Assembly (NCBI RefSeq): GCF_003002915.1
Contig: NZ_PVTG01000024.1
Span: forward strand, 19,642 to 51,641
Length of the DNA: 32,000 bases
Source of the DNA: Geodermatophilus tzadiensis
GTDB lineage: Bacteria > Actinomycetota > Actinomycetes > Mycobacteriales > Geodermatophilaceae
Reading direction: 5' to 3'
Shown here: in pieces, positions 3,903 through 25,753 of the stretch
Layout of the letters: the number at the start of each line of letters is the position of its first letter
How positions within the stretch are numbered: the first letter of the stretch is position 1
The notes under the pieces: model-generated
What the model was told of the DNA's origin: nothing
The model's database searches: none
Seen by the model: only the letters and a program-made list of their open reading frames with translations
Made by a program: the position numbers and the translations under genes

Positions 3903-3975
3903 GGGCCTCTAGCTCAACTGGCAGAGCAGCGGACTTTTAATCCGCGGGTTGTGGGTTCGATCCCCACGGGGCCCA
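3903..3975 (+). tRNA. tRNA-Lys (anticodon UUU)
   Basis: A hand-folded cloverleaf fits: acceptor GGGCCTC/GGGGCCC (one G-U pair), D arm GCTC-AACTGGCA-GAGC, anticodon arm GCGGA-CTTTTAA-TCCGC, variable loop GGGTT, T arm GTGGG-TTCGATC-CCCAC, discriminator A. It is 73 nt long and CCA is not encoded. Confidence 0.93.
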
Positions 3976-6019: not shown

Positions 6020-6027
6020 TCCCAGAC

Positions 6028-9809: not shown

Positions 9810-9883
9810 GTGCGCTGCCAAGGATTGGGCGCCTGGGAGACTTGCGCGACGCCGCACGGTCGCTCGACGGAGAAGGAGAGGGT

Positions 9884-12800
9884 GTGCCGCACGCTCCGCG
9901 GTGGGTTGAGGTCACCCCGTCGCCCTTCACGCACGAGGCGGAGGGCCTACGAACGGTCCGCGACCTCCTCCCGCAGACCTCCCCTTACCGCGCCTGGTCG
10001 AACGTCGAGTTCCGCGACGGCCAGGGCAAGTGGCACGAGGTCGACCTCATCGTCCTCGGCCAGCGCCGGCTGCATCTCGTCGAGCTGAAGTACTACAGCG
10101 GCACACTTCGCGGCGACGACCTACGCTGGCTCCGCGACGGCCACCGCGCCGAGGACTCCCCGCTCAAGCTGGCCCGACGCAAGGCGCAGCGGCTGGCCAG
10201 CCGGCTCCGCGACGAGCTGGTGCGCTGGGCCGAGGAGCGCGGCGTGCGCCCGGAGGAGGTTCGGCACCTCGTTCCCTGGGTCCAGGAGTCGGTCTTCCTG
10301 CACCACCCCGGCCTGCGCTGCGCCTTACCGCGCGCCTCTCAGGTCGACCTCTTCGGTCTCGACGACCGCGAGGCCACCTCTGGACTGCCCGGCATCTCCA
10401 CCCGGCTGCTGGAACCACCGGCCGGCGGGCAGGCTGTCAGCCGAGAGCTGGAAGGCCTGCTGGTCGACCTCATGGGTCGCATCGGACTGGTCCAGCGCCG
10501 TCAGCGCGAGCTTGGCTCCTGGGTCATCGACGACGAGCCGCTCGGGGAGGGCGAGGGCTGGCAGGACTGGTCGGCCACCCACCGGCACATCGGCGCCGAC
10601 CGCGCCCGCATCCGGGTCCGCGTCGTTCCGCCGGGTGCCGAGCGCGCCGAGCGCGATCGGATCCGCAAGGTCGTCGAGCACGAGTACCGGGTCATGACCC
10701 GGCTCGCCCACGACGGGCTGCTGCGCCCGCGGGACCTTCTCGACGACGAGCTGGGCATCGGCCTGGTCTACCCCTACGACGAGGACTTCCAGCGGCTGGA
10801 CCTGTGGCAGGCCGAGCGACCGCAGGGCGTCTCACTGGTCGACCAGCTGAACCTCGTCCGCCAGGTCGCCGAGGCGGTCGGCTACGCCCACCGCCACCGG
10901 GTCGTTCACCGCGGCCTGACGCCGTTCGCCGTCTCGGTCAAGACGACCCGAGACGCCGGCCTGCAGGTTCTCGTCGGTGACTGGCAGAGCTCCGGCTCCG
11001 TGTCGGGGGAGGCCCTCACCGGGATGGCCACCAGCGGGGTCACCGCCCTGGCGGCCACCGAGGTCCGCGACCGGCTCGGCGCCATCCTGCAGCCGGCCGG
11101 CGTCGATGCCGACCGGCGGACGGCGGAGGCGTTCCAGGCGCCCGAGGGCGTATGGAACCGCGATGCCGACCGGGTGCGCCTGGACGTCTTCGCGCTCGGC
11201 GCGCTGACCTACTTCGTCCTGGCCGGGCGCCCGCCGGCGCCGGACCGCGCCGGTCTGCGCGACCGGCTGTTACGCGACCGCGGATTGGACCTCGCCGCGG
11301 ACCTGCCCCAGGTGTCCTCGGCCCTGCGCACGCTGGTCCTGGAGGCGACCCGACCCGCGGTCAGCGACCGGCTGCCCGACGTCGGGGCCTTCCTCGACCG
11401 CCTCGCGCAGGCCGAGCGCGCGCTCACCTCTGGTGACGAGGTCAGCGACCCGCTGGAGGCGAACCCCGGCGACGTCGTCGGTGACCGCTGGCAGCTCGAG
11501 CGCCGCCTCGGCGCCGGGTCCACCGCCGTCGGCCTGCTCGTCTCCGACCTCACGGCCGGCTCGGGGCCGGAGGCTCGCCGGGTGCTCAAGGTCGGCATCA
11601 ACGATGCCGCGGTGGCACGGCTGGACGCCGAGGCCGACGTTCTCCGGTCGCTCGACCACCCGCGGATCGTGAGGCTGGCCGAGGGACCCGTCCAGCTGGG
11701 CACCCGCCGCGCCCTCGTGCTTCACCCGGCCGGCGACCAGACCCTCGCCGAGGTCCTCTACGGGCGGCCCCGGCTCTCCCTGGACCTGCTCGAGCGGTGG
11801 GGCGCCGACCTGCTGCAGGCCCTTACCGTGCTGGACCGCGCCGGGATCGATCACCGCGACATCAAGCCGGCCAACCTCGGCGTCCGTGAGGAGCGCGGAG
11901 AGCGCGGGGACCGCGCCAAGCACCTGGTCCTCTTCGATTTCTCCCTGGCGCGGGCGGGTGCGACGGCGGTCAACGCCGGGACGCCGCCCTACCTGGACCC
12001 GTTCCTGGAGAGCCCCGGACGCGGCCGGTACGACTCGGCGGCCGAGCGGTACTCCGCCGCCGTCGTCCTCTTCGAGATGGCTACGGGGGCGACGCCGGTG
12101 TTCGGCGACGGCCTCAGCGACCCGGCCGCCGTACCCGACGAGGCCGCGGTCCACGAGGCGCTGTTCGACCCCGCCGTGGCCCCGGCTCTCGTCGACTTCT
12201 TCCGAACCGCGCTGGCCCGGAAGGCCACCCAGCGGCACCACACCGCCGCCGACATGCTCAGCGCCTGGACGTCGGTGTTCGTCCCGCTGCCCATGTCGGT
12301 TCCGGACGATGCTGAGGCCCGCGTGGAGGCCGCCCAGCCGTCGACGCCGCTGGCCGAGGCGGGCCTGTCCGCCCGAGCCCTCTCCGCACTCGAACCGTTC
12401 GGGGTCAGCACCGTCGGTGACCTGGTGGCCCTCGACCCCGTCCGGCTCAACCGGCTTTCCGGCGTGGCCGAGCCGACGCGCCGGGAGGTCAAGCAGCGGG
12501 CCAAGCAATGGCGCGACCGCTTCGGCTCGGTCGTTACTGGGCGCAGCCGCTTGGCACCGGCTGCCGACGCCGGCACGTCCCCGACGCCGACGCGAGCGGC
12601 GCAGCTGCTGCTCGACGCGGTCGGGTCGGCTCGCGCCCAGAGCCGCCGGAAGGCCGCCGGGCTGATGCTCGGGCTCGAACGGGGCCTGGACGCCTTCGCG
12701 ACCCAGGATGAGGTGGCAGCGGCCCTCGGCTTCACGCGGGCACGTGCCGCGCAGATGGTCTCGGAGATGCAGGATGCTTGGGCGGCGAATCCGGCCACCT

Positions 12801-14149
12801 GCGCCGTCCTGCAGGACGTCGGGGCGGTCGCGACCCGGGCCCTGGCCGACCTCGGCGGCGTCGGGACCGTCGAGGAGCTCGCCGGTGCCGTCCTGGCCGC
12901 GCTCCCGGCTGGGGACGCGGACGGCGTGTTCCCAGAGCGCCTGGCCGCCGGCCTGCTCCGGGCCGCGCTCGACCGGTTGGACGCGCTGCAGCGAGCCGAC
13001 GCCGACGAGGCAGGGCTGACCAAGCGCCGCCGGCAGGGCCGGGTCCTGGCCGTGGCGACGGAGGCCGAGCTGCTCGACCTCGCCGACGCGCTCGGCCGGC
13101 GCGCCGACGAGCTGGTGTTCGAGGCTCGATCCGCGGCAGAGCCGGTCGTGGCCCGGGGGCGGGCCGTCGGTGCGCTTCGGGAGATGGCTGACCAAGCCGG
13201 CGACGTCCGGACGGCGCCGGCGGACGAGCGGCTGCTCCGGTTGGCCGCTGCCTTCTCGCAGGCCGCCGCCATCTCCGGCCGCGGGGAGCTGCACGCCCGC
13301 GACCTCGAGCCGGTTCCCGCCCTCCAGCTGGCCCTCGCCGGGGTGGGGGGAGGGCAGGAGATCGCCGCGCAGGAGATCCGGGACCGGGTGCGCGCCCGCT
13401 TCCCGGCCCTGCCACCGTTGCCCGATCGCCCCCGGCTGGACGCGCTGATCGACGAGGCGGGCCTGCCGCTGCTCTACGACGAGCAGCTGCGTGCCTTCCG
13501 CGCCCCGGTCGTGGCCGCCGACACGACGGGGCTGGAGTCGCGGGTCGTCACGGCTGTCGCTCCATCCGGTGCGCCGCTGTCGGTCTCCGGCGGTCAGCTG
13601 GACCGCCGGCTGGCGGAGAGCGCCCGGTCCCGGTCGTTCCTGGCGCTGGGTGTCGAGGCACCCCGGGCGGACCGGGCGGTCGAGGCGCTGGTCAAGCGGC
13701 ACGGCGCGCACGTCGTTGACCTCACCGGCGTACTCATCGACGAGCTGCACCGGCAGGCCGAAGGGCGCATCCCCTGGCCGGCGGTCGTGGCCGCCGACGC
13801 CCGCCCGCTCGGCACCCGGGAGGCGGAGGGACTGGCCCGGCTGGTCGCCCTCGCCCTGCCCGGTGTCGAGCGCGCGATCGAGGACGCGGCTGGGGAGGCG
13901 GACGACGCCCGGCCCGTGCTGCTGGTGGAGGCGGCACCGCTGGCCCGCTACGACCAGCTGGCGCTGCTCAGCCGGTGGACTGACCTGGCCGCGCCGCGGC
14001 AGCAGGCGATCTGGCTGCTCGTGCCGCAGCTCTCCGGCAACACCGGCGCCATGATCGACGGCCGTCCGCTGCCGCTGGCCGCACCGGGCCAGTTCGTCCG
14101 GCTGGACGAGGAGTGGCTGACCCCGCTTACCGCGCCCGCCGGCCGGTGA
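9884..14149 (+). CDS. pglW: BREX type 2 / Pgl protein PglW: NERD domain + degenerate kinase-like domain + canonical Ser/Thr protein kinase domain + HhH-containing C-terminal region
   Basis: The start is GTG 9884, 5 nt after GAAGGAGAG (the track start TTG 9842 is less likely). NERD-like WHEVDLIVLGQRRLHLVELKYYSG lies at ~10030-10100. The first kinase-like domain has HRHRVVHRGLTPFAV and VGDWQ in place of HRD and DFG. The second has LGAGSTAVG, RRVLKV, IDHRDIKPANLGV, LFDFSLA and GTPPYLDPF. GLSARALSALEPFGVSTVGDLV resembles the HhH of the RNA polymerase alpha CTD. At ~1420 aa it matches the large PglW of type 2 BREX. Confidence 0.9.
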   Translation: MPHAPRWVEVTPSPFTHEAEGLRTVRDLLPQTSPYRAWSNVEFRDGQGKWHEVDLIVLGQRRLHLVELKYYSGTLRGDDLRWLRDGHRAEDSPLKLARRKAQRLASRLRDELVRWAEERGVRPEEVRHLVPWVQESVFLHHPGLRCALPRASQVDLFGLDDREATSGLPGISTRLLEPPAGGQAVSRELEGLLVDLMGRIGLVQRRQRELGSWVIDDEPLGEGEGWQDWSATHRHIGADRARIRVRVVPPGAERAERDRIRKVVEHEYRVMTRLAHDGLLRPRDLLDDELGIGLVYPYDEDFQRLDLWQAERPQGVSLVDQLNLVRQVAEAVGYAHRHRVVHRGLTPFAVSVKTTRDAGLQVLVGDWQSSGSVSGEALTGMATSGVTALAATEVRDRLGAILQPAGVDADRRTAEAFQAPEGVWNRDADRVRLDVFALGALTYFVLAGRPPAPDRAGLRDRLLRDRGLDLAADLPQVSSALRTLVLEATRPAVSDRLPDVGAFLDRLAQAERALTSGDEVSDPLEANPGDVVGDRWQLERRLGAGSTAVGLLVSDLTAGSGPEARRVLKVGINDAAVARLDAEADVLRSLDHPRIVRLAEGPVQLGTRRALVLHPAGDQTLAEVLYGRPRLSLDLLERWGADLLQALTVLDRAGIDHRDIKPANLGVREERGERGDRAKHLVLFDFSLARAGATAVNAGTPPYLDPFLESPGRGRYDSAAERYSAAVVLFEMATGATPVFGDGLSDPAAVPDEAAVHEALFDPAVAPALVDFFRTALARKATQRHHTAADMLSAWTSVFVPLPMSVPDDAEARVEAAQPSTPLAEAGLSARALSALEPFGVSTVGDLVALDPVRLNRLSGVAEPTRREVKQRAKQWRDRFGSVVTGRSRLAPAADAGTSPTPTRAAQLLLDAVGSARAQSRRKAAGLMLGLERGLDAFATQDEVAAALGFTRARAAQMVSEMQDAWAANPATCAVLQDVGAVATRALADLGGVGTVEELAGAVLAALPAGDADGVFPERLAAGLLRAALDRLDALQRADADEAGLTKRRRQGRVLAVATEAELLDLADALGRRADELVFEARSAAEPVVARGRAVGALREMADQAGDVRTAPADERLLRLAAAFSQAAAISGRGELHARDLEPVPALQLALAGVGGGQEIAAQEIRDRVRARFPALPPLPDRPRLDALIDEAGLPLLYDEQLRAFRAPVVAADTTGLESRVVTAVAPSGAPLSVSGGQLDRRLAESARSRSFLALGVEAPRADRAVEALVKRHGAHVVDLTGVLIDELHRQAEGRIPWPAVVAADARPLGTREAEGLARLVALALPGVERAIEDAAGEADDARPVLLVEAAPLARYDQLALLSRWTDLAAPRQQAIWLLVPQLSGNTGAMIDGRPLPLAAPGQFVRLDEEWLTPLTAPAGR

Positions 14150-14211: not shown

Positions 14212-14230
14212 GCCTGCGGGCGGCGCAGGC
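14212..14230 (+). other. GC-rich hairpin in the pglW-pglX spacer (GCCTGCG-GGCGG-CGCAGGC)
   Basis: A 7-bp perfect stem with a 5-nt loop, 63 nt after the pglW stop and 59 nt before the pglX ATG. No U-tract follows. Confidence 0.3.
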
Positions 14231-14288
14231 CGGCACACCAGACCCAGGATCAGTACGACGGCCTCCGCTGGGGGGCGAGGAGTAGTTC

Positions 14289-17200
14289 ATGAGCGCGGGC
14301 AAGGCGTTGACGGTGGCGCTGCAGAAGCAGGTCCTGCTTCTGGAGGACGACCTGCGGAGCCGGGTGGAGCAGGATCCGGAGGCTCTGAGCCGGTGGCAGG
14401 CGGAGCACCGTCAGGCGATGGCGCATCGGCGGACGGCGGCGTCGTGGCAGGCCTGGCGAGACGACCGGGTCACCCAGGCCGCGGTGGGCTGGGTGCTGAC
14501 CACGGTGTTCGTGCGGTTCTGCGAGGACAACCGGCTGGTTGAGCCGGTCTGGATCGCCGGGACCGGCGAGCGGCGGCAGCAGGCGCTTGATGCGGAGCTG
14601 GAGTTCTACCGGGCTCGCAGCCGCGAGCAGGATGTCACCGCGCGGGACTGGCTGCTTCAGGCGGTCGAGCACCTGGCCTCGCTGCCGGCGACGGAGGCGT
14701 TGGTCGACCAGCACGCGGCGCTGCACCTGACGAAGCCCTCCGGCGACGCGGTCACCAAGCTGCTCGAGTTCTGGCGGGCGCGCGGCGAGGACGGCGCGCT
14801 GCTCTGGGATCTCACCGACCCGGAGCTGGACACCCGCTTTCTCGGCGACATGTACCAGGACCTCTCCGAGTACGCGAAGGCGACCTATGCGTTGCTACAG
14901 ACGCCTGACTTCGTCGAGGACTTCATCCTCGATCAGACCTTGGAGCTGGCGCTGAAGGAGCGGCCGCTGCAGGGCTTCAAACTAATCGACCCCACCTGCG
15001 GATCGGGCCACTTTCTGCTCGGTGCCTTCGATCGGCTGTTGAACCGCTGGCAGCGAGAAGCACCAGGCACGGAGCGGCAGGCGCTGGTACAGCAGGCTCT
15101 GGACGCCATCCATGGCGTGGACATCAACCCGTTTGCGGTCGCCATCGCCCGCTTCCGGCTCACGGTTGCTGCGCTTAAGGCATCCGGGCTTCGGTCACTT
15201 GAGAAGGCCCCAGCGTTCCGCTTCCGATTGGCCGCGGGTGACTCGCTATTGCACGGGCCGCAGCGAACGCTACAGGAAGACGAGGACCTTTCCAGGTTTA
15301 CCTACTCGACAGAAAACCTAGCAGCTCTGCAGGACATTCTGATTGAGGGTCAATACGACACCGTAGTAGGAAATCCCCCGTACATTACGGTGAAGGATAA
15401 TGAGCTCAACAAGGCTTATCGATCCCTGTACAAGACCTGTCGTGGCACCTATGCAATGACCGCTCCCTTTATTGAGCGATTCTTTCAACTCGCGAAGCGA
15501 GGTAGTGCTGGACGAGCGTCAGGCTGGGTTGGGCAAATCACGTCCAACTCGTTCATGAAGCGCGGATTCGGCGTAAATGTGATTGAAAAGTTCCTCGTTC
15601 GCAAGGACTTGCGGCTCTTGGTCGACACTTCAGGGGCATATATCCCCGGACATGGAACGCCCACGCTGGTCCTTGTCGGGCGTAACCGTGAGCCTGTGGG
15701 CGCGGCTGTCCGTGCGGTCTTGGGCGTTCGCGGCGAGCCGCAGCGCCCTAGTGATCCAAGCAAGGGACTCGTATGGCGCTCGATCGTCGAGCATGTTGAG
15801 ACCGCAGGTTGGAATGATGACTGGATCACCGTTACGGACCTAGAGCGCAGCCTGCTGGCCTCCCATCCGTGGAGCCTTTCCGGCGGTGGTGCCGTTAACT
15901 TGCTAGCCGCCCTACAGGACCCTTCGAGGCGCAAGTTGGCGGACGTAGTAGACGTGGTGGGCTACGCGGCTATAACCGGCGAAGACAGTGCCTATCTGGT
16001 GGACGGTGCGACATCCAGGCGGCGTGAGATCGAACGCAGTCGATCCATGGTAATGGGAGACGCGGTCCGGGATCATGTCATAACGACCAGTATGGTAGTT
16101 CCTTTTCCGTACGGCGAAGATCTGTCAGCGATGCAGGAGTCCCAGATTCCACGCACACTGAGGTTCCTGTGGCCGAGTCGACGGTACCTGCAGACCCGTC
16201 GACGCTTCTCTGTACCCGTCGAAAGTATTCCCGGCTTTCGGTGGTACGAGTTCAGAGAGTTCTATAAGAGTCGCCTTGATCATCCTCTTACGATCACTTT
16301 CTCGGAGGTTGCAACCCATAACCACTTCGCCTTGGATCGAGGTGGCAGGTTGTTCAATCAGACGGCCCCGATAATCAAGATCCCTGCAGGGTCTGGTGAA
16401 GACGAATCTGTTGGGCTGTTGGGCGTTCTGAACTCTTCTGCTGCCTGCTTCTGGCTCAAGCAGGTCTGTCATGGCAAGGGTAATGGCGGCGTCAATGAAG
16501 GGTTCAGGGGTGACGACTGGGAGGAGTTCTTCCAGTTCAATGGTACGAACGTTGCGAACCTACCGTTGCCCAGTGTGCTTCCTATTGCAAGGGGTCGGCG
16601 ACTTGACGAGCTAGCGCATAGGCTCGCTCATTCCACCCCTATGGCCGCGGCTGCGAGCTCTATCCCTACCGGTCATGCACTGGAGAGGGCGAGAGATATC
16701 TCTACTGGCCTCCGCTCCCAGATGGTGGCGCATCAGGAGGAGCTGGATTGGGAGGTCTACCGCCTGTACGGGTTGATTGAGGAGGATCTTACGTACCCCG
16801 GCGCTGATCTTCCCGAGCTAGCGTCAGGTGAGCGGGCGTTTGAGATTTCCCTGGGGCGTAGGGTTGCGATGGAAGGTGAAGAGACTACGTGGTTTACCCG
16901 GCATGGGTCCACGCCAATTCTTGAGATTGACCCGCGTTGGCCAGCTGCCTACCAGGAACTGGTGCGGCGCCGGGTCGACCTTATCGAACGCGACCCGAAC
17001 ATTCGTTTGTTGGAGCGTCCAGAGAACAAAAGGCGCTGGGCGGCTGACTCGTGGGAGAAGTCGCAGGCCGCAGCACTGCGGGACTGGTTGCTGAACCGGC
17101 TGGAGGACCGAAGGTTCTGGCTGGACCGGCAGGGGCGTCCGGCGCCGCGGAGCGTGGCGCAGCTGGCCGATGAGGTCGCCCGGGACGAGGACCTGGTCAG

Positions 17201-17840
17201 CGTGTTGGCGCTGTGGGAGGGCCGGCCGGACGTCCCCGTGGTCCAGTCGCTGGTCAAGCTGCTGGCCGAGGAGGCGGTGCCGTTTTTGGCCGCCTACCGG
17301 TACAAGGACTCTGGCCTGCGCAAGCGCGAGGCCTGGGAGGAGACCTGGGCGCTGCAGCGGCGGGAAGACGCGGGCGAGCACCCGGCGGAGCCGATCCCGG
17401 TGCCGCCGAAGTACACCTCCGCCGACTTCCGCAAGAACTCCTACTGGCAGGCCCGCGGCAAGCTCGACGTTCCCAAGGAGCGGTTCATCCTCTACCCCGA
17501 TGCCGGGCGGGAGACCGACCCGACCCCGCTGCTGGGCTGGGCCGGCTGGGATCATGCCCAGCAGTCGCTAGCACTGTCGGTGATCATTGGCGCCCGGGAG
17601 GCCGAGGGCTGGGCGGATGAGCGGCTGGTGCCGCTGGTCGCAGGGCTGGCCGAGCTCCAGCCATGGGTGGAGCAGTGGCACGCCGAGGTCGACCCAGCCT
17701 TCGGGGTCAGCCTCGCCGCCTTCTGCCGTGAGCAGCTCACCGCTCGCGCCGGGCAGGTCGGCAGGACCCGCGAGCAGCTCGCCGCTTGGCGGCCAGCTCC
17801 TCCGGCCACCCGCGGCCGCAAGCCCCGGGCTCGGTCGTGA
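14289..17840 (+). CDS. pglX: BREX / Pgl N6-adenine DNA methyltransferase PglX
   Basis: 1183 aa. ATG 14289 lies 6 nt after GAGGAG. The SAM-binding motif I is LIDPTCGSGHFLLGAF, and catalytic motif IV is VVGNPPYITV (NPPY at 15372-15383). The size and the long C-terminal extension are typical of PglX/BrxX. Confidence 0.92.
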   Translation: MSAGKALTVALQKQVLLLEDDLRSRVEQDPEALSRWQAEHRQAMAHRRTAASWQAWRDDRVTQAAVGWVLTTVFVRFCEDNRLVEPVWIAGTGERRQQALDAELEFYRARSREQDVTARDWLLQAVEHLASLPATEALVDQHAALHLTKPSGDAVTKLLEFWRARGEDGALLWDLTDPELDTRFLGDMYQDLSEYAKATYALLQTPDFVEDFILDQTLELALKERPLQGFKLIDPTCGSGHFLLGAFDRLLNRWQREAPGTERQALVQQALDAIHGVDINPFAVAIARFRLTVAALKASGLRSLEKAPAFRFRLAAGDSLLHGPQRTLQEDEDLSRFTYSTENLAALQDILIEGQYDTVVGNPPYITVKDNELNKAYRSLYKTCRGTYAMTAPFIERFFQLAKRGSAGRASGWVGQITSNSFMKRGFGVNVIEKFLVRKDLRLLVDTSGAYIPGHGTPTLVLVGRNREPVGAAVRAVLGVRGEPQRPSDPSKGLVWRSIVEHVETAGWNDDWITVTDLERSLLASHPWSLSGGGAVNLLAALQDPSRRKLADVVDVVGYAAITGEDSAYLVDGATSRRREIERSRSMVMGDAVRDHVITTSMVVPFPYGEDLSAMQESQIPRTLRFLWPSRRYLQTRRRFSVPVESIPGFRWYEFREFYKSRLDHPLTITFSEVATHNHFALDRGGRLFNQTAPIIKIPAGSGEDESVGLLGVLNSSAACFWLKQVCHGKGNGGVNEGFRGDDWEEFFQFNGTNVANLPLPSVLPIARGRRLDELAHRLAHSTPMAAAASSIPTGHALERARDISTGLRSQMVAHQEELDWEVYRLYGLIEEDLTYPGADLPELASGERAFEISLGRRVAMEGEETTWFTRHGSTPILEIDPRWPAAYQELVRRRVDLIERDPNIRLLERPENKRRWAADSWEKSQAAALRDWLLNRLEDRRFWLDRQGRPAPRSVAQLADEVARDEDLVSVLALWEGRPDVPVVQSLVKLLAEEAVPFLAAYRYKDSGLRKREAWEETWALQRREDAGEHPAEPIPVPPKYTSADFRKNSYWQARGKLDVPKERFILYPDAGRETDPTPLLGWAGWDHAQQSLALSVIIGAREAEGWADERLVPLVAGLAELQPWVEQWHAEVDPAFGVSLAAFCREQLTARAGQVGRTREQLAAWRPAPPATRGRKPRARS

Positions 17841-17919: not shown

Positions 17920-20900
17920 ATGAGCGTTCTGCTGCGCGACGTCCTGACCATCCCAGAGCGCGCGGGGGCCGAGGACTACGTCCTGCGGCTGACAGACAGC
18001 GTCGGCGGCAACCGGGTGGCGCAGACGCTCGCCGAGTACGTGGTCACGGAGTCACTCGCCGACGGCTTCGATCAGGCGCTCGGGCTGGTCGCCGAGGCGA
18101 TCGGGTCGGGCGTCAGCCGCGGTGCCTTCCTCTCCGGTTCCTTCGGGTCCGGGAAGAGTCACTTTATGGCGGTGCTGTACGCGCTGCTGCGCGGCGAGCC
18201 CGCGGCCCGGCAGAAGGTCGAGTTGCAGCCCGTCGTCGCCAAGCATGACCCGGGGCTGCAGGGCAAGAAGGTGCTGCCGCTGGCCTTCCACCTGCTCGGC
18301 GCCGAGTCGATGGAGAAGGCGCTCTTCGACGGCTACCTGCGGCAGATCCGCGCCCTGCACCCCGGCGCACCGCTGCCGGCGATCCACCAGTCCGACGCCC
18401 TGCTCGCCGACGCCGAGCGGCAGCGCGGCCTGCTCGGCGACGAGCAGTTCTTCGCCGGCCTCAACGGCGGCACCGCCGGCGACGCGGGCGACGACCCGTG
18501 GGCCGCCGTTCTCGGCTCGGGCACCTGGAACCGCGAGACCTACGACGCGGCCCGAGCCGCCGCCCCCGGGGAACCCAAGCGGCAGCAGCTCGTCACCGCG
18601 CTGGTGAGCACCTACTTCACCAGCTACACCGCCCAGGCGTCCTACGTCGACCTCGACACCGGGCTGAGCGCCATCTCCGGCCACGCCGCGGTTCTCGGCT
18701 ATGACGCCGTGGTGCTGTTCCTGGACGAGCTGGTGCTTTGGCTGGCCTTCTCCGTGCAGGACCGCGCCTTCTTCCGCCGGGAGTCGCAGAAGCTCACCAA
18801 GCTCGTCGAGTCCGCCGTCGGCGGCCGGGAGATCCCGCTGATCTCCTTCGTCGCCCGGCAGATGGACCTACGGCAGTGGTTCGCCGACGCGGGCGCCTCC
18901 GGCGCCCAACAGGACGCCCTGGACCAGGCGTTCCGGCACCAGGAGGGCCGGTTCTCCACGATCGTCCTCGGGGACGACAACCTGCCCTACGTGGCGCACC
19001 AGCGGCTGCTGCGGCCCCGCGACGAGGCCGCCGACCGGATCCTGCGGGACGCCTTCGGCAACCTCGACCGCCGCGGCGAGGTCTGGGACGTGCTGCTCGA
19101 CGGGGTCAACACCGACGAGCGGCACCGCGGCGCCGACGAGGCGGCCTTTCGGCTGACCTACCCGTTCTCGCCGGCGCTGGTCTCCACTCTGCGCTCGCTG
19201 GCCAGCGTGATGCAGCGGGAGCGGACCGCGCTCAAGGTCATGCAGCAGCTGCTCGTCGACCGGCGGAACGCGCTCACCGTGGACGACGTCATTCCGGTCG
19301 GGGACGCCTTCGACTACGTCGTTGAGGGGCGGGAGGTGCTCGACCCCCAGGTCGGCGCGCTGTTCCGGTCGGCGACCGCGCTCTACCGCGACAAGTTGCG
19401 ACCGATCCTGCTCGCCGAGCACGGCCTCACCGCCGAGCAGGTCGCCGGCGGAACGGACCTGCCGGCTGGCTACCTGGCCGACGACCGGCTGGCCAAGTCG
19501 CTGCTGCTGTCGGCGGTGGCGCCCAAGGTGCCGGCGCTCAAGGAGCTCACCGCCTCCCGGCTGGCCAGCCTCAACCACGGTTCGATCGTGTCGCCGCTGC
19601 CCGGCGCTGAGGTGCAGATCGTGCTGGCCAAGGTCAAGGAGTGGGCCCGGCGGGTGCCGGAGATCCACGTCAGCCCCGACCCCCGCAATCCGGTCATCCG
19701 GGTCCAGCTCTCCGACGTCGACTACGAGTCGATCGTGGAGCGGGCCAAGTCCGAGGACAACGAGGGCCGCCGCCGGGAGCTGCTCAAGGACCTCGTCCGC
19801 GACGCCTTCGGGATGCCGGCCCGCGACACCGACGTCTTCGGCGCCCAGGCGCACACCGTGATCTGGCGCGGCTCGCGGCGCGAGGTGGACGTCGTCTTCG
19901 GCAACGTCCGCGACGCCGGCTGGCTGACCGAGGACCACTTCCGCGCCCGCCCGCAGACCTGGCGGCTGGTCGTCGACTACCCCTTCGACGAGCACGGCCA
20001 CTCCGCCGCCGAGGACCTCGCCCGGGTCGACCAGCTGATCGCCGGCGGATTCCAGGCTCGCACCATCGTCTGGCTGCCCCGCTTCCTCTCCGAGGAGCGG
20101 CTGCGTGACGTCCGCCGGCTGGTCATCCTCGAGTGGCTGCTCGGCGGTGCGGGGGAGCGGTGGACCTCGCACGCCGACCACCTCTCCGAGGTCGACCGGG
20201 TGCAGGCCAAGGCAATCCTCGAGCAGCAGCGCACCGCCCTGCGGGAGGGTCTGCGGCGCTCGGTCCAGGAGGCCTACGGCGCGGCCGCGCCCACGCCCGG
20301 CACCCTGCTGGAGGACGCCGCCCACGACCGCGTTCTGATCTCGCTCGACCCCGCGCTGCGGGTCGCCAGCCCGGTCGGGGCCGACCTCGCTGCGGCCTTC
20401 GGCAACCTGGTCGACCAGGCGCTGACCTCCCAGTACCCCGGGCATCCGCGGTTCGAGCCGGCTGACGTCGAGATCGGGCCGCGGGAGCTGTCGACGACCT
20501 ACGGGTACGTGGAGAAGGCCGTCGCCGACCCGGACGGCCGGGTGCTGCTCGAGCGCAGCGACCGGGACGCGGTGCGCCGCGTGGCCAACCCGCTGCAGGT
20601 CGGGTCGGCCGGTGAGACGCACTACCTGTTCGGGGACGACCGGTTCGCCGCCTGGGGGCCGGAGTTCGCCCGGGCCATGCCCCGCGACGGCAAGCAGCCC
20701 CAGGACCCGGTGACCGTCGGTGACGTGCGCCGCTGGATCGAGGCCATGCGCCCGGCCAACGGCCTGCGCGACGAGGTCGCCGACCTGGTGATCCTCGCCT
20801 GGGCCGCGCTGCGGCAGCGGGCCTGGTACGCCCACGGCGCCCCGCTGGTCCCGCCCCCTCGGCCGGGCCAGCTGCGCCCGGAGATGGAGCTGCGGCCCGA

Positions 20901-21642
20901 ACCGCTGCCCACCCCCGAGGAGTGGGAGGTCGCGGTGCGCCGGGCCGCCGCGCTGTTCGGCGTGCCGGCAAGCCCGTTCCTGACCGCCCCCGCCGTGGCC
21001 GCCCTCACCGAGCGGGTCCGCAGCATCGCCGGGGACCTCTCCGGCTTCGCCGCGGCGCTGATCCAGCAGCTCGGCGACGCCTACGGGCGGCTCGGGCTGC
21101 CCGACAGCAGCGGGAGGCTGGCCACCGCGCGCGAGGCCGACTCGCTGCTCGCCCAGCTGCGCGGCAGCGGCGACCGGGTGCGGCTGGTGCAGGTGCTGGC
21201 CGGTTTCGGCGACTCGGCCCGGGATGCGGCGCTTTCTCGCTCGTTGTCCTCCGCGCCCAGCATCGCCGGGGCCCTGTCCCAGTACCGCTGGACCTTGCTG
21301 CAGCCCCTGCTCGATGCCGAGGCCACTGATCCCAGCGCCACCACGGCGCTGCGCGGGCTGCGGGAGGCGCTGGGCCACGACGAGATCGTGTCGGGCCTGC
21401 AGCCGGTACTGCGGGCCGCCGAGGAGGCGGCCGTCACCTGGCTGGCTCGGCACCGGCCGCAGCCGGTCCCCGTTCCGGACCCGCCGCGCCGGCCAGACGA
21501 CGTGCCGCTGCCCGTGCCCAACGCTCGCCGGGTGACCCGGGCCAAGGGTGAGTCTCCGCAACCGGTGCTCGACGAGCTCAGCGCCTTCCTCGCCGAGCAC
21601 CCCGATGAGCGGGTCGTCGTGGAGTGGCGGGTGGAGGGGTGA
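17920..21642 (+). CDS. pglY: BREX type 2 / Pgl P-loop ATPase PglY
   Basis: 1240 aa. Walker A is [16 protein letters not shown], and a Walker B-like motif is [12 protein letters not shown]. It sits between pglX and pglZ, as in Pgl. Confidence 0.88.
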
Positions 21643-24416
21643 CGGCCGGCGCGCCGAGCGTCGCCACGGTGCCGGTCGTCCGCGCCCTGCTCGACGAGGC
21701 GCGGCGGAAGAACTACACCGCCGGCGCGCTGGGCATCCGCGCCCGGCCCGAGTGGCCGGGCGCGGGAACCTTCGAGCACCAGGGGGTGCCGGTCACCGTC
21801 GTCCCGTGCGTCTCCACCCTCGCCGTCCGCGAGGCGCTCCGGCAGCGCGGCCCGGACCGGTGGCTGGTCATCCTCACCGACCGGGACGACGGCGACCTGG
21901 GCGCCGGCGTCCGCAGCCACCTGATCTGGCACCGGCTGCGCACCCCCGACCCGTGGGACGCCGTGCAGGGCCGCTTCGCCGCCACCGCGCTCGACCCGGC
22001 CCTGCCCACCGTTCCCGGCCACCGCGAGTTGGCCCTCGGCCTGCTGGCCTGCACCCCGGCCGACGGCGGCTGGCCGCCCGCCCCCGGCGGTGTGCTCACC
22101 CGCGACCACGCCCTCGGTTCGGTCGCCCGCCGGCACCTCGGGCTGCCGGCCGAGGAACTCACCGCCGACGCCGTCCTGCGCTGGACGGCGGCCCCGCACA
22201 CCTCCGGGCTGATCGCCGACCTGCGCACCCTCGCCGGTGACGCGCTCACCGACGCGGTGCTCGACTGGATCGCCGGGCACCTCGGTGCGGCCGCTGCCCC
22301 GGTGCGTCAGTTGCTGCGCCGCGGCCAGGGTGGGGACGCCGTTCCCCTGGGCGTCGTGCTCGACACGCTGCTGCAGGCCCGGGCCGGGCAACGGGCCGAT
22401 GACGTCGTCCTCGCCCGTGAGGCGCTGGTGCGGCTGGAGCCGCGGACCGGCGGCGCGGGTGTGCCGCCGACCGCGCTGGACGCCTGGGCCACGCAGGCCG
22501 GCGGGCTGGTGCGCCGCCAGCTCGAGAGCCGCGCCGAAGCCGCCGCCGCCGAGCGGCTGCTGGCCGAGGCCGACCTGCTGCTGGCCGAGGCACGGGCCAC
22601 CGCGCTGGCCGAGTGCTCCGCGCTGCTGCCGGCCGCGCTGCCCGCCCGGCTCGCTCGCCTGGCCGCCGCGCTGCGCAGCGCCGTCGCCTCCTCTCCGGCC
22701 GAAACCGTCGACCGGCCAGCCGTGTCGGCGAGCCGGCTCGACGACGTCGAGGCAGCCTGGCACGCCGTGCAGGACCACGCCCTCGCCCCCGGCGACCCCC
22801 GGGTGACCGCCTTCCGCGCCGCCGTGCGACTGGCCCGCTGGCTGGCCCTTGACAGCACCGCGGCCGAGAGCACGCTGCCCGCGCTGCACCGCCGGCACCT
22901 CGACGTGGACGCCTGGGTCGACTCCGCCGTCAACGACGCCGCCGCCGGTGTCGGCGAGCCTGAGCTCGGTGCCGCCCTGGCCGCGGTGCTCGCTGCCGTG
23001 CAGCAGCGCCGCAACCGGCACGACGAGCAATTCGCCGCCGCGCTGGCCGACCACACCCGCAGCGACCGGCCGGGCAGCCCCGCCATGCTGCTGCTCGAAG
23101 AGTTGCTGCCCGAGGTCGTCCTGCCGCTCGCCCGTCGCACGCCGGTCCTGCTGCTGGTGCTCGACGGGATGAGCGCCGCGGTCGGCACCGAGGTGCTCGC
23201 CGACATCGTCGCGCGCTCCCCGGGCAACTGGACCGAGGCCCTGCCCGAGGGACAACCCCGCAGGATCGGTGCCGTCTCGGTGCTGCCGAGCATCACCGAG
23301 GTCAGCCGCGCCTCCCTGCTCAGCGGGGAGCTGACCGTCGGCGGGCAGGACGTCGAGCAGCGCGGCTACGCGGCGCTCGCCCGAGCGCACCGGCTGCCCG
23401 GCGCCCAGCTGTTCCACAAGAAGCCGCTGGACAGCACGGCCATGGGGTTTGCGGTCGCCGGCGACGTCGGCGCGGCCATCGACGACCAGTCCGGGCGACC
23501 GCTGGTCACCTGCGTGCTCAATACCATTGACGACGCACTCGACCGCTCCGACCCCGCCGGCACCGAGTGGACCGCCGAGGCCATCAAGCACCTGCGGCCG
23601 CTGCTGGAGCGAGCGCGGCTCGCCGGCCGCGTCGTCGTCCTCACCTCCGACCACGGGCACGTGGTCGAGCGGCGGCAGGGCACCCAGCGCAGCGCCCCCG
23701 CGTTGTCCAGCGCCCGGTCCCGCCCCGACGGCCCGGTCGGGGATGGTGAGCTGCTGGTCACCGGCCGACGGGTGCTCAAGCACGACGGCCGCGCCGTGCT
23801 CGCGGTCGACGAGCGGCTGCGCTACGGGCCGCTGAAGGCCGGCTACCACGGCGGCGCGGCACCGGCCGAGATCGTCGTGCCGGTGCACGTTCTCGTCGCC
23901 GGCAGCCAGACCGCCGGAACATCCCTGGTGCCGGCCCGCCCGCAGGAACCGGAGTGGTGGGTCGGCCCGGTGGCGGGGCCGCCGGCCGCCCCGGCGGTTC
24001 CATCGGCGCCTGCCCCCCGGCCGCGCAAGACCGCCGCGCCGAGCTCCCTGCTGACGCTCTTCGACGATCTCGAACCCGAGCCGGCGCCGGCGCCGGCCGC
24101 CGACTCCCTCGGTGCGGTCACGGTCGCCTCGGCCACCTACGCCGACCAGCGACGGCTGGCCGGCCGGGTGACCGTGACCGATCAGCAGGTGCGGCAGCTG
24201 CTCGACGCGCTGGCCGCCGCGCCGGACCGGCGGCTGCCCGCATCCGCGGCCGCTCGGGCGCTCGACGTCGCACCGGCCGCCCTCCGCGGCGCGGTACTGC
24301 ACGCCCAGCGGCTGCTCAACGTGGAGGGATACGCGGTGCTCGGCGTCGATGTCGACGGCTCGACGGTCCGGCTCGACGAGCCGCTCCTACGCGAGCAGTT
24401 CGAGCTGCGCGCATGA
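21624..24416 (+). CDS. pglZ: BREX alkaline-phosphatase-superfamily protein PglZ
   Basis: 930 aa. The PglZ-domain hallmarks are [28 protein letters not shown] and [15 protein letters not shown]...[10 protein letters not shown]. The start is ambiguous: GTG 21624 overlaps pglY by 19 nt, and the in-frame GTG 21639 gives a GTGA overlap. Confidence 0.9.
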
Positions 24417-25753
24417 GCACCGACGTCTCGCCGCGCCGCCGGCGCGAGGTCATCGATGCGCTGCGCCGCGGCACCGTGCCGGCCGCCGGACTCGACCTGC
24501 TCGCCGTCGGGCTGGAGCGATTCGTGCCCGCGTTCGACGCCGACCTCGACGCGGTGGCGGCCGGCGGATCGGCGTTCAAGGCCATCCGCGGTGAGTACGG
24601 GGCGGGCAAGACCTTCGTCACTCGCTTCCTGGCCGAGCGGGCGCTGCGCCGGGGCATGGCGACTGCCGAGGTGCAGATCTCGGAGACCGAGACCCCGCTG
24701 CACAAGCTGGAGACGGTCTACCGCCGGGTGGGGGAATCGCTGCGGACGGCTAGCTTCCCGCCCAGCGCGCTGCGCCCGGTGCTGGACTCCTGGCTTTACA
24801 CGCTGGAGTCCGACGCCGCATCCCTCAACCCGTCCCTGGCCGCCGGCTCGGCCGTCCTGGACGAGGCCGTGCTCACTCTGCTCGAGCAGCGGCTGGCCGC
24901 CGTCTCGGCGCGGACCCCGGCGTTCGCCCAGGCGCTGCGTGCCTACCGCAGTGCCGTCGTCGCCGGCGACCTCACCGCCGCGGATGCACTCGGCGGCTGG
25001 CTCGGCGGGCAGCCGCACGTCGCCGGCGCCGCCAAGCGTGCTGCCGGCATCCGCGGAGAGTTGGACCACTTCGGCGCCATGGGCTTTCTGCAGGGCCTGC
25101 TGACCGTGCTGCGCGACGCCGGGCACCCCGGGCTGCTGCTGGTCCTCGACGAGGTGGAGACGCTGCAGCGGGTACGCGGCGATGTCCGGGACAAGGCACT
25201 CAACGCGCTGAGGCAGCTCGTCGACGAGGTCGACTCCGGCCGCTTCCCGGGGCTGTTCCTCGTGATCACCGGCACACCGGCCTTTTACGACGGGCCCAGC
25301 GGCGTGCCCCGCCTGGCACCGCTCGCCCAGCGATTGGCCACCGACTTCTCCACCGACGCCCGCTTCGACAACCCCCGCGCCGTGCAGCTGCGGCTACCCG
25401 GGTTCGACCTGGCCGCGCTGACCGCGCTCGGCGCCAAGGTGCGGGACCTGTTCGCCGGCGGGGCCGGCGATCCGGACCGCCTCACGCGCGCGGTCGATGA
25501 CGGCTATCTGGGGGACCTGGCCGGCGCGGTGAGCGGATCGCTGGGTGGGCGGGTCGGGGTTGCGCCGCGGGTCTTCCTCAAGAAGCTGGTCGGGGACGTC
25601 CTCGACCGGGTCGACCTGTACGAGGACTTTAATCCTCGACGGGATTACGCGCTGATCATGAGCGCCACCGAGCTGACCGACGTCGAGCGGGAGAGCGCGT
25701 CGCTCAGCGTCGCCCCGGCCGCCCGTGCCGACGACGTCCAGCTCGACCTGTGA
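24413..25753 (+). CDS. brxD: BREX type 2 ATP-binding protein BrxD (DUF2791-like P-loop protein)
   Basis: This is the frame of track ORF 23954..25753, started at ATG 24413, which overlaps the pglZ stop (ATGA). REVIDALRRGTVPAAGLDLLAVG ... FKAIRGEYGAGKTFVTRFL is a Walker A, and PGLLLVLDEVETL is a Walker B. Confidence 0.85.
   Translation: MSTDVSPRRRREVIDALRRGTVPAAGLDLLAVGLERFVPAFDADLDAVAAGGSAFKAIRGEYGAGKTFVTRFLAERALRRGMATAEVQISETETPLHKLETVYRRVGESLRTASFPPSALRPVLDSWLYTLESDAASLNPSLAAGSAVLDEAVLTLLEQRLAAVSARTPAFAQALRAYRSAVVAGDLTAADALGGWLGGQPHVAGAAKRAAGIRGELDHFGAMGFLQGLLTVLRDAGHPGLLLVLDEVETLQRVRGDVRDKALNALRQLVDEVDSGRFPGLFLVITGTPAFYDGPSGVPRLAPLAQRLATDFSTDARFDNPRAVQLRLPGFDLAALTALGAKVRDLFAGGAGDPDRLTRAVDDGYLGDLAGAVSGSLGGRVGVAPRVFLKKLVGDVLDRVDLYEDFNPRRDYALIMSATELTDVERESASLSVAPAARADDVQLDL

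What the first reader, a model, noticed from the sequence alone, without database searches (positions are those of the whole stretch)
15240..17040. Low-GC mosaic block inside pglX covering the NPPY motif and the presumed target-recognition region
I hand-counted G+C on the printed 60-nt lines. The pglX flanks give about 72-77% (lines 14341, 14401, 17101, 17701). Lines between ~15240 and ~17040 mostly give about 45-63%: 15301 is 29/60, 16081 is 30/60, 16261 is 27/60, and 16981 is 32/60. A few lines reach ~67-70% (15661, 15721, 15841). The right boundary is sharp, from 53% at 16981 to 68% at 17041 and 77% at 17101. The left boundary is graded, from ~14850. The reading frame is uninterrupted. The block spans roughly aa 318-917 of 1183, from just before catalytic motif IV (GNPPY, 15372-15383) through the region C-terminal of the MTase core, where BREX methyltransferases are thought to read their target site. 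No other BREX gene here shows such a dip. The simplest reading is a recombinational cassette swap of the specificity-determining core from a lower-GC donor into a resident high-GC pglX scaffold. That would be a route for BREX specificity switching.
Basis: seen in the sequence. Interest (0 to 1): 0.72.

Follow-up and report, generated by a model that had tools for sequence, protein, structure and literature searches.

The report
Family-wide low-GC specificity segment in pglX
The low-GC stretch inside this phage-defence methyltransferase gene is real, but nearly every related gene in other high-GC bacteria has it too: it marks the DNA-reading part of the enzyme, which is repeatedly swapped between gene copies, and not a one-off import from a low-GC organism.

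Summary
Observation confirmed. pglX (14289-17840, +) has a low-GC block that is mainly a synonymous-site effect. GC3 is 0.64 inside aa 229-920 (nt 14973-17046) and 0.91 outside (delta-logL 62; permutation maximum 8). At 4-fold sites it is 0.59 against 0.90. No other gene of this BREX type 2 operon drops below 0.83.

Interpretation partly supported. The block is not peculiar to this gene: 82 of 82 orthologues from other genomes have lower core GC3. The family-average valley bottoms (0.59) at aa 550-650, inside the hypervariable target-recognition domain (TRD, about aa 530-800, mapped by homology to CamA).

Across 205 sequences, TRD identity stays near 43% whether the flanks are 45% or 95% identical. 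Close pairs show blocks of saturated synonymous divergence. Two Streptomyces loci are 95% identical over 19.6 kb except for an unalignable stretch at aa ~529-820.

So TRD-centred allelic replacement is real and recurrent. However, low GC is a property of the circulating segment, not evidence of a lower-GC donor genome. No donor was found: the best core match is 63% and the best TRD match 56%. The query's only peculiarity is a wider block; aa 801-917 has GC3 0.66 against 0.84 predicted.

This is an ordinary member of a known kind, with a modestly interesting family-wide pattern whose cause is unresolved.

The parts
14289..17840 (+). pglX, BREX type 2 N6-adenine DNA methyltransferase (1183 aa)
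   Evidence: Pfam Eco57I MTase aa 274-448, MmeI_Mtase, and DUF7008 aa 812-1178 at E 7.8e-161. It is 67% identical to a protein NCBI names 'BREX-2 system adenine-specific DNA-methyltransferase PglX' from Modestobacter.
14973..17046 (+).
   Evidence: GC3 0.64 inside and 0.91 outside; delta-logL 62 against a permutation maximum of 8. At 4-fold sites, 0.59 against 0.90.
14988..15014 (+). SAM-binding motif I (DPTCGSGHF, aa 234-242)
   Evidence: Invariant columns D234 to F242 in alignment A1; aligned to motif I of Salmonella PglX 8C45.
15372..15383 (+). Catalytic motif IV, NPPY (aa 362-365)
   Evidence: Direct translation; invariant N362 P363 P364 Y365.
15876..16688 (+). Inferred target-recognition domain (TRD), about aa 530-800; it is hypervariable and holds the trough of the family GC3 valley
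   Evidence: Profile A1 positions 353-731 align with CamA 7LNI residues 159-515 at E 3.4e-13. CamA's TRD is residues 320-577 (PMC8187626), and CamA residue ~320 aligns near position 528. The consensus is undefined over most of aa 536-810. Family GC3 minimum is 0.59 at aa 551-650. The unalignable gap between L063 and L068 falls at aa ~529-820. The end near aa 800 is extrapolated.
16689..17048 (+). aa 801-920, a helical segment that starts DUF7008; in this gene it is unusually low in GC3
   Evidence: GC3 0.66 against 0.84 predicted from the family regression, z -2.4. In relatives this segment tracks host GC3 with slope 1.10. Helices are predicted here, but the whole model is poor (mean pLDDT 59.6).
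16722..17822 (+). DUF7008 domain (aa 812-1178); the sharp right edge of the block lies inside it
9842..14149 (+). pglW (NERD nuclease plus Ser/Thr kinase)
   Evidence: Pfam NERD and Pkinase; GC3 0.91; 72-74% identical to PglW of L001 and L004.
17920..21642 (+). pglY (BrxC-like ATPase)
   Evidence: Weak DUF6079 match; syntenic with genes carrying BrxC-PglY_N and PglY domains in L001; 75-84% identity; GC3 0.95.
21624..24416 (+). pglZ
   Evidence: Pfam PglZ; GC3 0.93 even though its protein divergence (44-70% identity) is comparable to that of the PglX core.
24413..25753 (+). brxD (start inferred from 446-aa orthologues)
   Evidence: Pfam BrxC_BrxD at 5.7e-133; 446-aa orthologues in L001 and L004; 85-87% identity.
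25750..27861 (+). brxHI helicase
   Evidence: Pfam DEAD and Helicase_C; 81-87% identity to L001 and L004.
3903..3977 (+). tRNA-Lys(UUU), the likely attachment site of the island carrying the BREX-2 operon
   Evidence: ARAGORN.
3909..5891 (-). Tyrosine integrase abutting the tRNA
   Evidence: Pfam Phage_integrase at 1.4e-25.

Best explanation
The gene is an ordinary BREX type 2 (Pgl) pglX, sitting in an operon pglW-pglX-pglY-pglZ-brxD-brxHI on an island next to a tRNA-Lys gene and an integrase. Its low-GC block is this gene's version of a feature shared by nearly the whole family: a valley of synonymous-site G+C centred on the target-recognition domain (TRD, about aa 530-800).

The TRD-centred segment has a history separate from the rest of the gene. 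It is replaced again and again by homologous recombination whose crossovers fall in the conserved sequence on either side: the methyltransferase core on the left, and the helical start of DUF7008 on the right. Each replacement presumably changes the methylated and targeted DNA motif.

Shown here: the valley is family-wide; TRD similarity is decoupled from scaffold similarity; close relatives carry discrete replaced blocks with differing end points; and in the query the TRD is incongruent with the scaffold.

Inferred: the query's own block arose by such a replacement with unusually wide end points (about aa 229/300 to 920), and replacement switches specificity.

Unresolved: why the segment stays GC3-poor in every host. 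My preferred guess is that divergent TRD lineages are cut off from the within-species recombination or selection that keeps GC3 high in these genomes, so they sit nearer the AT-biased mutational equilibrium. Repeated influx from lower-GC hosts is the alternative.
For: Operon and identity.

Family-wide valley: the flank-minus-core GC3 difference is positive in 82 of 83 loci and in 82 of 82 at 4-fold sites, with means 0.86 and 0.68. 75 of 82 fit a block with delta-logL above 15; the median block is aa 397-821, with GC3 0.63 inside and 0.87 outside. The position profile bottoms at aa 551-650. The valley is regional: columns conserved in at least 90% of sequences have GC3 0.88 in the N flank, 0.73 in the catalytic part, 0.72 in the TRD and 0.87 in the C flank.

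Decoupling: TRD identity has a median of 0.42-0.45 in every flank-identity bin from 0.4 to 0.97, and its correlation with flank identity is 0.21. The catalytic part gives 0.88.

Replacement blocks: for L063/L068, 4-fold synonymous identity is 0.76-1.0 in the flanks and 0.2-0.6 across aa 351-950, including aa 351-450 where the protein is 88-90% identical. The two loci are 94.5-95.2% identical over 19.6 kb except for an unalignable gap at aa ~529-820. Other pairs have blocks at aa ~350/400-750, 251-700, 201-800, or 751-900 only.

Query: Spearman between flank and TRD identity is -0.02. The flank clade ranks 1 of 200 over aa 1-500 (apart from rank 18 in the 151-250 window) and over aa 851-1183, and ranks 20-66 in between. 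Synonymous identity to L003 is 0.39-0.76 in the flanks and 0.0-0.47 in the core. The aa 801-917 segment is 0.18 below the family regression.

Fast protein evolution alone does not lower GC3: PglZ is as divergent as the PglX core (44-70% identity) yet has GC3 0.93.

TRD mapping. Type 1 and type 2 PglX share one architecture (PMC12839542).
Against: No relative is closer than 84% in the flanks, so no breakpoint in the query itself can be demonstrated and no event can be dated.

No donor allele was found: the best TRD identity is 56%.

No pair of divergent scaffolds shares a clearly closer TRD; the largest excess of TRD over flank identity is 0.11. A freely shuffled, small cassette pool would produce such pairs, so the pool must be very large, or divergence in place contributes.

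Among pairs with flank identity of at least 0.88, TRD identities form a continuous tail from 0.35 to 0.75 rather than a clean two-state pattern.

The low-GC3 block reaches aa 229. That is about 270 residues left of the protein-level incongruence, and there the flank clade still ties for nearest.

The TRD position rests on a sequence-profile alignment to CamA, because the AlphaFold model was too poor to use.

The link to methylation specificity is by analogy with type 1 PglX (PMC11341690) and is untested.
Confidence: 0.7

Rival explanations
1. One reading: a single, fairly recent cassette import from a donor organism with a lower-GC genome into a resident high-GC pglX. On this view the low G+C is un-ameliorated donor composition.
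For: The right edge is sharp and lies inside a conserved domain. GC3 of about 0.6 would suit a genome of roughly 55-60% GC. BREX-2 pglX also occurs in lower-GC hosts and on plasmids: Bifidobacterium, Nanopelagicales MAGs, Rhodococcus, and betaproteobacterial plasmids. The shoulders at aa 326-400 and 801-917 are lower than in most relatives.
Against: The same low-GC3 core is present in 82 of 82 orthologues. Both partners of the clearest swap have it, at 0.63 and 0.64. The query's TRD GC3 is close to the family prediction, z -0.9. The core GC3 (median 0.63) is below the flank GC3 of every sampled host, including those at 59-61% GC. The closest core and TRD matches (P0002 and P0014, metagenome proteins with no taxon label; 63% core, 55-56% TRD) have the same full-length BREX-2 PglX domain architecture as the other family members, and the taxon-labelled core hits are mostly Actinomycetota.
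Confidence: 0.08
2. There is no exchange at all. The TRD region simply diverges very fast in place under diversifying selection from phages, and relaxed constraint lets synonymous sites drift towards AT.
For: No divergent scaffolds share a clearly closer TRD. TRD identities among close pairs form a continuum from 0.35 to 0.75. TRDs are known to diverge rapidly (PMC12839542).
Against: Synonymous sites at residues that are identical in both sequences are saturated inside the blocks while the flanks stay at 0.76-1.0. This holds even in the catalytic segment, which is 88-90% identical at protein level. Faster amino-acid change in place would not raise synonymous divergence about tenfold. The blocks have discrete and differing end points and include sub-blocks, such as aa 751-900 only. 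L063/L068 is 95% identical over 19.6 kb with one unalignable 875-nt gap. PglZ and PglW are as divergent as the core but keep GC3 at 0.91-0.93.
Confidence: 0.1
3. The AT-richer stretch is kept by selection on the DNA or RNA itself. It might be a binding region for an AT-preferring nucleoid silencer such as Lsr2 that damps expression of a toxic methyltransferase, an internal promoter, or a recombination-prone landing zone.
For: The valley is conserved in position across very diverse hosts and also affects conserved codons. Core GC3 follows host GC3 only partly: slope 0.40-0.56. I recall that PglX is toxic without PglZ in Streptomyces coelicolor, but I did not check this here.
Against: No conserved nucleotide element was sought or found. 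The depth and edges of the valley differ from gene to gene and coincide with recombination blocks, which a fixed regulatory element would not do. Nothing here tests binding or transcription.
Confidence: 0.07

Closest known systems
Type 1 BREX PglX/BrxX (Salmonella PglX 8C45, E. coli BrxX 9EWZ)
   Same: The order of parts is the same: N-terminal helical bundle, gamma-class N6-adenine MTase core with motif I and NPPY, TRD, helical spacer, then a C-terminal region. The TRD sets the 6-bp motif and can be re-engineered (PMC11341690). Type 1 and type 2 enzymes are described as sharing this architecture (PMC12839542). Local divergence inside pglX between otherwise similar BREX loci has been noted (PMC9009780).
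   Different: Sequence similarity to the solved type 1 proteins is confined to motif I and is very weak at motif IV (E 9e-5 with the profile). The C-terminal domain here is DUF7008. The partner genes are pglW, brxD and brxHI rather than brxA, brxB and brxL. The papers read here mention neither a compositional valley nor block replacement.
CamA and M.BseCI (gamma-class adenine MTases with a C-terminal TRD)
   Same: These are the best solved-structure matches to the family profile. The alignment runs from motif IV through the TRD: positions 353-731 against CamA 159-515, E 3.4e-13. This places the TRD right after the catalytic domain.
   Different: Both are stand-alone enzymes of about 580 aa. 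They lack the N-terminal bundle and DUF7008 and are not part of a defence operon.
TRD exchange ('domain movement') and allelic TRD replacement in Type I hsdS, Type III mod and Type IIG methyltransferases
   Same: Specificity changes when a TRD is replaced through recombination in conserved flanking sequence, so the TRD has a different history from the rest of the gene (PMC3077401, PMC3983042, PMC3575425).
   Different: Those cases are mostly within one species (Helicobacter pylori) and often use repeats or a second TRD copy within the gene or genome. Here there are no repeats and no silent copy in the window. The exchange is between alleles in different strains or species, and it comes with a family-wide drop in synonymous G+C.
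Phase-variable or shufflon-type pglX
   Same: It concerns the same gene and would have the same presumed outcome, namely altered or switched BREX activity. Phase variation of pglX is noted in PMC11341690.
   Different: Inside this pglX there is no homopolymer tract of 6 nt or more, no inverted-repeat-bounded cassette and no second pglX fragment. The only G6 run, at 14270, lies upstream of the start codon.

Membership tests
BREX type 2 (Pgl) defence system | Operon encoding PglW (NERD plus kinase), PglX, PglY (BrxC-like), PglZ, BrxD and the BrxHI helicase | tested here: met
   Pfam domains on six consecutive same-strand ORFs, 9842-27861. The gene order matches the Modestobacter locus L001 and L004, with 68-87% identity per protein.
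BREX type 2 (Pgl) defence system | PglX is a gamma-class N6-adenine MTase with motif I, NPPY and the C-terminal DUF7008 | tested here: met
   Homologues are named 'BREX-2 system adenine-specific DNA-methyltransferase PglX' by NCBI.
BREX type 2 (Pgl) defence system | Methylates a specific motif and limits phage growth | not testable with these tools
   This needs methylome sequencing and phage assays.
TRD replacement by homologous recombination (as in hsdS, mod and Type IIG MTases) | A hypervariable TRD bounded by conserved sequence | tested here: met
   The consensus is undefined over most of aa 536-810 and is flanked by invariant columns. Mean pairwise identity is 0.43 in the TRD and 0.65 in the flanks.
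TRD replacement by homologous recombination (as in hsdS, mod and Type IIG MTases) | TRD similarity is decoupled from scaffold similarity | tested here: met
   Family correlation 0.21. For the query, Spearman -0.02 and loss of clade rank over aa ~501-900.
TRD replacement by homologous recombination (as in hsdS, mod and Type IIG MTases) | Discrete blocks of saturated synonymous divergence between otherwise near-identical alleles | tested here: met
   Met in relatives: L063/L068, three Micromonospora pairs, Frankia and Parafrankia pairs. For the query itself the test is inconclusive, because the nearest scaffold is only 84% identical; the trend is in the same direction.
TRD replacement by homologous recombination (as in hsdS, mod and Type IIG MTases) | An identifiable donor allele, or the same TRD on a different scaffold | tested here: not met
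   Best core match 63% and best TRD match 56% among 5.8 billion proteins. Only about 70% nucleotide matches among plasmids. No pair has TRD identity exceeding flank identity by more than 0.11.
TRD replacement by homologous recombination (as in hsdS, mod and Type IIG MTases) | Replacement changes the methylated motif | not testable with these tools
   Inferred from type 1 PglX engineering (PMC11341690).
Compositional island imported from a lower-GC donor genome | The atypical composition is specific to this host's copy and absent from orthologues elsewhere | tested here: not met
   82 of 82 orthologues show the same low-GC3 core. The query's TRD lies near the family regression, z -0.9.
Compositional island imported from a lower-GC donor genome | The closest relatives of the segment come from lower-GC taxa | tested here: not met
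   The best core hits are metagenomic and actinobacterial BREX-2 PglX proteins, with no closer low-GC lineage.
Local shufflon or phase-variable pglX | A silent cassette, inverted repeats or a simple-sequence tract in or beside the gene | tested here: not met
   tblastn and blastn of pglX against the window, a repeat search and a homopolymer scan all found nothing.

The most novel reading that the evidence does not exclude
The valley is a steady state rather than a scar. TRD-centred segments of BREX-2 pglX persist as old, balanced allelic lineages that hop between scaffolds. Because they are too divergent to recombine with the local population, they escape whatever force keeps synonymous sites at about 90% G+C in Actinomycetota (GC-biased gene conversion or selection; compare PMC4450053). 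They therefore sit nearer the AT-biased mutational equilibrium, and the gradient on each side reflects how far recombination tracts reach in. If so, pglX would be a within-gene natural experiment on what maintains high G+C in bacteria.
Probability: 0.25. Interest if true: 0.6.

Novelty: new member of a known kind. Interest (0 to 1): 0.33.

Why it matters
For this window it matters little: the gene is a normal BREX type 2 pglX with the variable specificity region typical of its family.

The family-level result has some practical and conceptual value.

First, the natural crossover zones give ready-made junctions for building specificity-swapped BREX-2 methyltransferases. No type 2 enzyme has been engineered in the papers read here. 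The zones are the methyltransferase core at about aa 230-500 on the left, and about aa 750-950 on the right, with a possible internal junction near aa 750.

Second, a dip in synonymous G+C is a cheap, alignment-free marker of the specificity region in high-GC genomes.

Third, a valley that persists in every host, including at conserved codons, is an unexplained compositional pattern. It bears on the long-running question of what maintains high G+C in bacteria.

Tried and rejected
1. Donor search. I ran a full-length protein search and a core-only protein search against 5.8 billion proteins, plus a distant DNA search of the core against plasmids. Nothing was closer than 63% protein identity or about 70% nucleotide identity.

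2. Structure route to domain boundaries. AlphaFold2 with a 31-sequence alignment gave mean pLDDT 59.6 and pTM 0.36. That is too poor, so I ran no fold search and used a profile alignment to CamA instead.

3. Local switching devices. A search for a silent pglX fragment, long direct or inverted repeats and homopolymer tracts found nothing.

4. Amino-acid composition as the cause. Rejected: the dip persists at 4-fold sites, and K/(K+R) is unchanged.

5. Site-level codon-accuracy effect as the cause. Rejected: conserved columns inside the core are also low.

6. General 'fast-evolving proteins have low GC3' as the cause. Rejected: PglZ and PglW are equally divergent but keep GC3 at 0.91-0.93.

7. 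'The query's dip is an outlier'. Only partly true. The raw dip of 0.28 is in the upper tail of 0.05-0.36, but the TRD is typical for the family once flank GC3 is accounted for (z -0.9), and only the width is unusual.

8. Search for the far end of the tRNA-Lys island. No repeat of the tRNA 3' end lies within the window.

9. Not done: the taxon of the window was not determined. The nearest operons are Modestobacter and metagenomic contigs, so I ran no further search on it.
Full report
**1. What is at the site.**
ORF 14289-17840 (+, 1183 aa) is pglX. It carries an Eco57I/MmeI-type N6-adenine methyltransferase domain (aa 225-448) and DUF7008 (aa 812-1178, E 7.8e-161). Its neighbours on the same strand are pglW (NERD plus kinase), pglY, pglZ, brxD and a DEAD-box helicase, brxHI. 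That is the gene set and order of BREX type 2 (Pgl), and the same order is seen in the Modestobacter locus L001 and in L004. A tRNA-Lys gene (3903-3977) and an adjacent tyrosine integrase (3909-5891, minus strand) lie upstream, so the operon sits on an integrated island.

**2.
- G+C in 600-nt windows falls to 0.56-0.61 between about 15000 and 17100, against 0.72-0.78 around it.
- The effect is mostly at third codon positions: GC3 is 0.54-0.70 in codons ~300-915 and 0.88-0.98 in the flanks.
- A two-change-point fit gives aa 229-920 (nt 14973-17046), with GC3 0.64 inside and 0.91 outside. Delta-logL is 62; the maximum in 30 permutations was 8.
- At 4-fold degenerate codons the figures are 0.59 and 0.90, and Lys/Arg usage does not shift, so amino-acid content is not the cause.
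- No other BREX gene here has a 100-codon window below 0.83.
The left edge is simply further left than 15240.

**3. The decisive control: the dip is family-wide.**
I fetched 80 orthologous loci from one-genome-per-species collections. Nearly all are Actinomycetota; there is also one Methylibium and one Aromatoleum. Four more loci came from the closest protein hits.
- Mapped onto the query's coordinates, core GC3 is below flank GC3 in 82 of 83 loci, and in 82 of 82 at 4-fold sites, with means 0.68 and 0.86.
- 75 of 82 fit a block with delta-logL above 15. The median block is aa 397-821, with GC3 0.63 inside and 0.87 outside.
- The family-mean profile is a broad valley: 0.86-0.90 up to aa 250, a floor of 0.59 at aa 551-650, and back to 0.85 by aa ~900.
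- The valley is regional. Columns conserved in at least 90% of sequences have GC3 0.88 in the N flank, 0.73 in the catalytic part, 0.72 in the variable part and 0.87 in the C flank.

**4. What the valley is centred on.**
The family alignment has no consensus over most of aa 536-810. The family profile aligns best with CamA (7LNI): positions 353-731 match residues 159-515, E 3.4e-13. CamA's catalytic domain is residues 1-320 and its target-recognition domain (TRD) is residues 320-577 (PMC8187626). CamA residue ~320 aligns near position 528. The TRD of this PglX is therefore at about aa 530 to ~800, and the end is an extrapolation.

This agrees with type 1 PglX, where the TRD follows the methyltransferase core and precedes spacer helices and a C-terminal region (PMC11341690). 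Type 2 enzymes are described as sharing that architecture (PMC12839542). My AlphaFold model was too poor to add anything (pLDDT 59.6).

**5. Evidence for recurrent replacement of the TRD-centred segment.**
Among 205 family sequences, TRD identity has a median of 0.42-0.45 in every flank-identity class from 0.4 to 0.97. Its correlation with flank identity is 0.21, whereas the catalytic part gives 0.88.

At the DNA level, two Streptomyces loci (L063 and L068) are 94.5-95.2% identical and collinear over 19.6 kb, except for an unalignable gap at pglX aa ~529-820. Identity at 4-fold sites of shared residues is 0.76-1.0 in the flanks and 0.2-0.6 across aa 351-950. That includes aa 351-450, where the proteins are 88-90% identical. 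Faster amino-acid change in place cannot saturate synonymous sites like this, but replacement by a distant allele can.

Other close pairs show blocks with other end points:

| Pair | Block (aa) |
|---|---|
| Three Micromonospora pairs | ~350/400-750 |
| Frankia pair (L064/L085) | 251-700 |
| Parafrankia pair (L056/L040) | 201-800 |
| L012/L014 and L048/L039 | 751-900 only |

The last row suggests at least two separately exchangeable sub-modules. The graded family-average valley is what a stack of such blocks with varying end points would look like.

**6. The query itself.**
Its nearest relatives (L003, L004, L001) are nearest across the whole operon: PglW 72-74%, PglY 75-84%, PglZ 68-70%, BrxD 85-87%, BrxHI 81-87%, and PglX flanks 74-90%. 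The core, by contrast, is only 53-58% identical, and it stays at 45-58% in nearly every locus tabulated (one, L034, is 38%).
- TRD identity to 204 relatives is uncorrelated with flank identity (Spearman -0.02). The best TRD match (56%, P0002) is not a close scaffold, and the best scaffolds have TRDs only 36-44% identical.
- In a sliding scan, the nearest-scaffold clade ranks 1 of 200 over aa 1-500 and 851-1183, except for rank 18 in the 151-250 window. It has no margin at aa 301-500, and it ranks 20-66 over aa ~501-900.
- Synonymous identity to L003 is 0.39-0.76 in the flanks and 0.0-0.47 in the core.

These results fit a replaced segment. However, with no scaffold closer than 84%, no breakpoint can be shown and nothing can be dated.

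**7. How unusual the query is.**
Core GC3 rises with flank GC3 across the family, with slope 0.56.

| Segment | Query GC3 | Predicted | z |
|---|---|---|---|
| Whole core (aa 318-917) | 0.63 | 0.73 | -1.8 |
| TRD (aa 530-800) | 0.61 | 0.67 | -0.9 |
| Catalytic half (aa 318-529) | 0.63 | 0.74 | -1.4 |
| aa 801-917 | 0.66 | 0.84 | -2.4 |

In relatives the aa 801-917 segment normally tracks the host (slope 1.10). So this gene's block is wider than usual, not deeper. Blocks of similar width occur in L037, L056 and L063.

**8. Why the segment is GC3-poor everywhere: unresolved.**
- It is not amino-acid content, not a site-level effect, and not fast protein evolution as such. PglZ is equally divergent yet has GC3 0.93.
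- Import from low-GC hosts is possible, since BREX-2 occurs in Bifidobacterium, Nanopelagicales MAGs, Rhodococcus and on plasmids. However, the median core GC3 (0.63) is below the flank GC3 of every sampled host.
- I favour a steady-state explanation, with low confidence. Divergent TRD lineages would be cut off from the within-population recombination or selection that keeps GC3 high (compare PMC4450053), and so would sit nearer the AT-biased mutational equilibrium.
- A functional role for AT-richer DNA, such as silencer binding, is not excluded.

**9. Comparison with what is known.**
TRD variability in PglX is recognised (PMC11341690, PMC12839542, PMC9009780). TRD replacement by recombination is well described for Type I, Type III and Type IIG methyltransferases (PMC3077401, PMC3983042, PMC3575425). 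My literature searches found no paper linking pglX to a compositional valley or to block replacement in BREX type 2, though the library is incomplete. There is no local shufflon or phase-variation device here.

**10. Verdict.**
Interest is modest. It rests on the family-wide pattern, which offers natural chimera junctions, an alignment-free TRD marker and an unexplained synonymous-site valley, rather than on this particular gene.

Noticed in passing
window 3903-8740: A tRNA-Lys(UUU) gene (3903-3977, +) abuts a tyrosine integrase (3909-5891, -), followed by an AAA_25-domain protein (6962-8740, +) and then the BREX-2 operon. This looks like a tRNA-integrated defence island. No repeat of the tRNA 3' end lies inside the window, so the far end is probably beyond 32000.
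   Followed up: partly
window 8982-9857 (-): A 291-aa ORF just upstream of pglW has unusually low GC3 (0.64) for this window and no Pfam match. It may be a real island gene of foreign composition or a spurious ORF in an intergenic, lower-GC stretch: window G+C is 0.68 at 9000-9900.
   Followed up: no
L027 and L029 (Micropruina sonneratiae, two scaffolds): One genome carries two BREX-2 pglX copies on different scaffolds. Their per-segment GC3 values and per-segment protein identities, to the query and to each other, are identical. This may be a duplicated island or an assembly duplication.
   Followed up: no
L012/L014 and L048/L039, pglX aa ~751-900: In these close pairs only aa ~751-900 is replaced, while aa 501-750 stays 62-90% identical. 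The variable region therefore seems to consist of at least two separately exchangeable modules.
   Followed up: partly
L045 (Bifidobacterium breve MAG contig): This is the only orthologue with no flank-to-core difference when all third positions are counted: 0.80/0.78 in the flanks against 0.79 in the core. The contig is short and the gene is truncated at aa 1089.
   Followed up: no
L001 757-4756 (Modestobacter) and L004 249-3277: The closest BREX-2 loci have other defence genes immediately upstream of pglW: ScoMcrA-like SRA/SBD and GmrSD in L001, and PLD-like plus DUF6361 in L004. The window has an integrase and AAA_25 there instead, so the operon is embedded in different island contexts.
   Followed up: no
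window 14270: A G6 run lies 14 nt upstream of the pglX start codon (G run 14270-14275, ATG at 14289). It is the only homopolymer of 6 nt or more in 14001-17900, and no run of 7 or more occurs anywhere in the window. It is too short to call a phase-variation tract.
   Followed up: no
window 9842-10500 (pglW 5' end): The start of pglW (NERD domain region) has the lowest GC3 in that gene: the 100-codon minimum is 0.84, at codon 131. This is a very mild dip compared with pglX.
   Followed up: no
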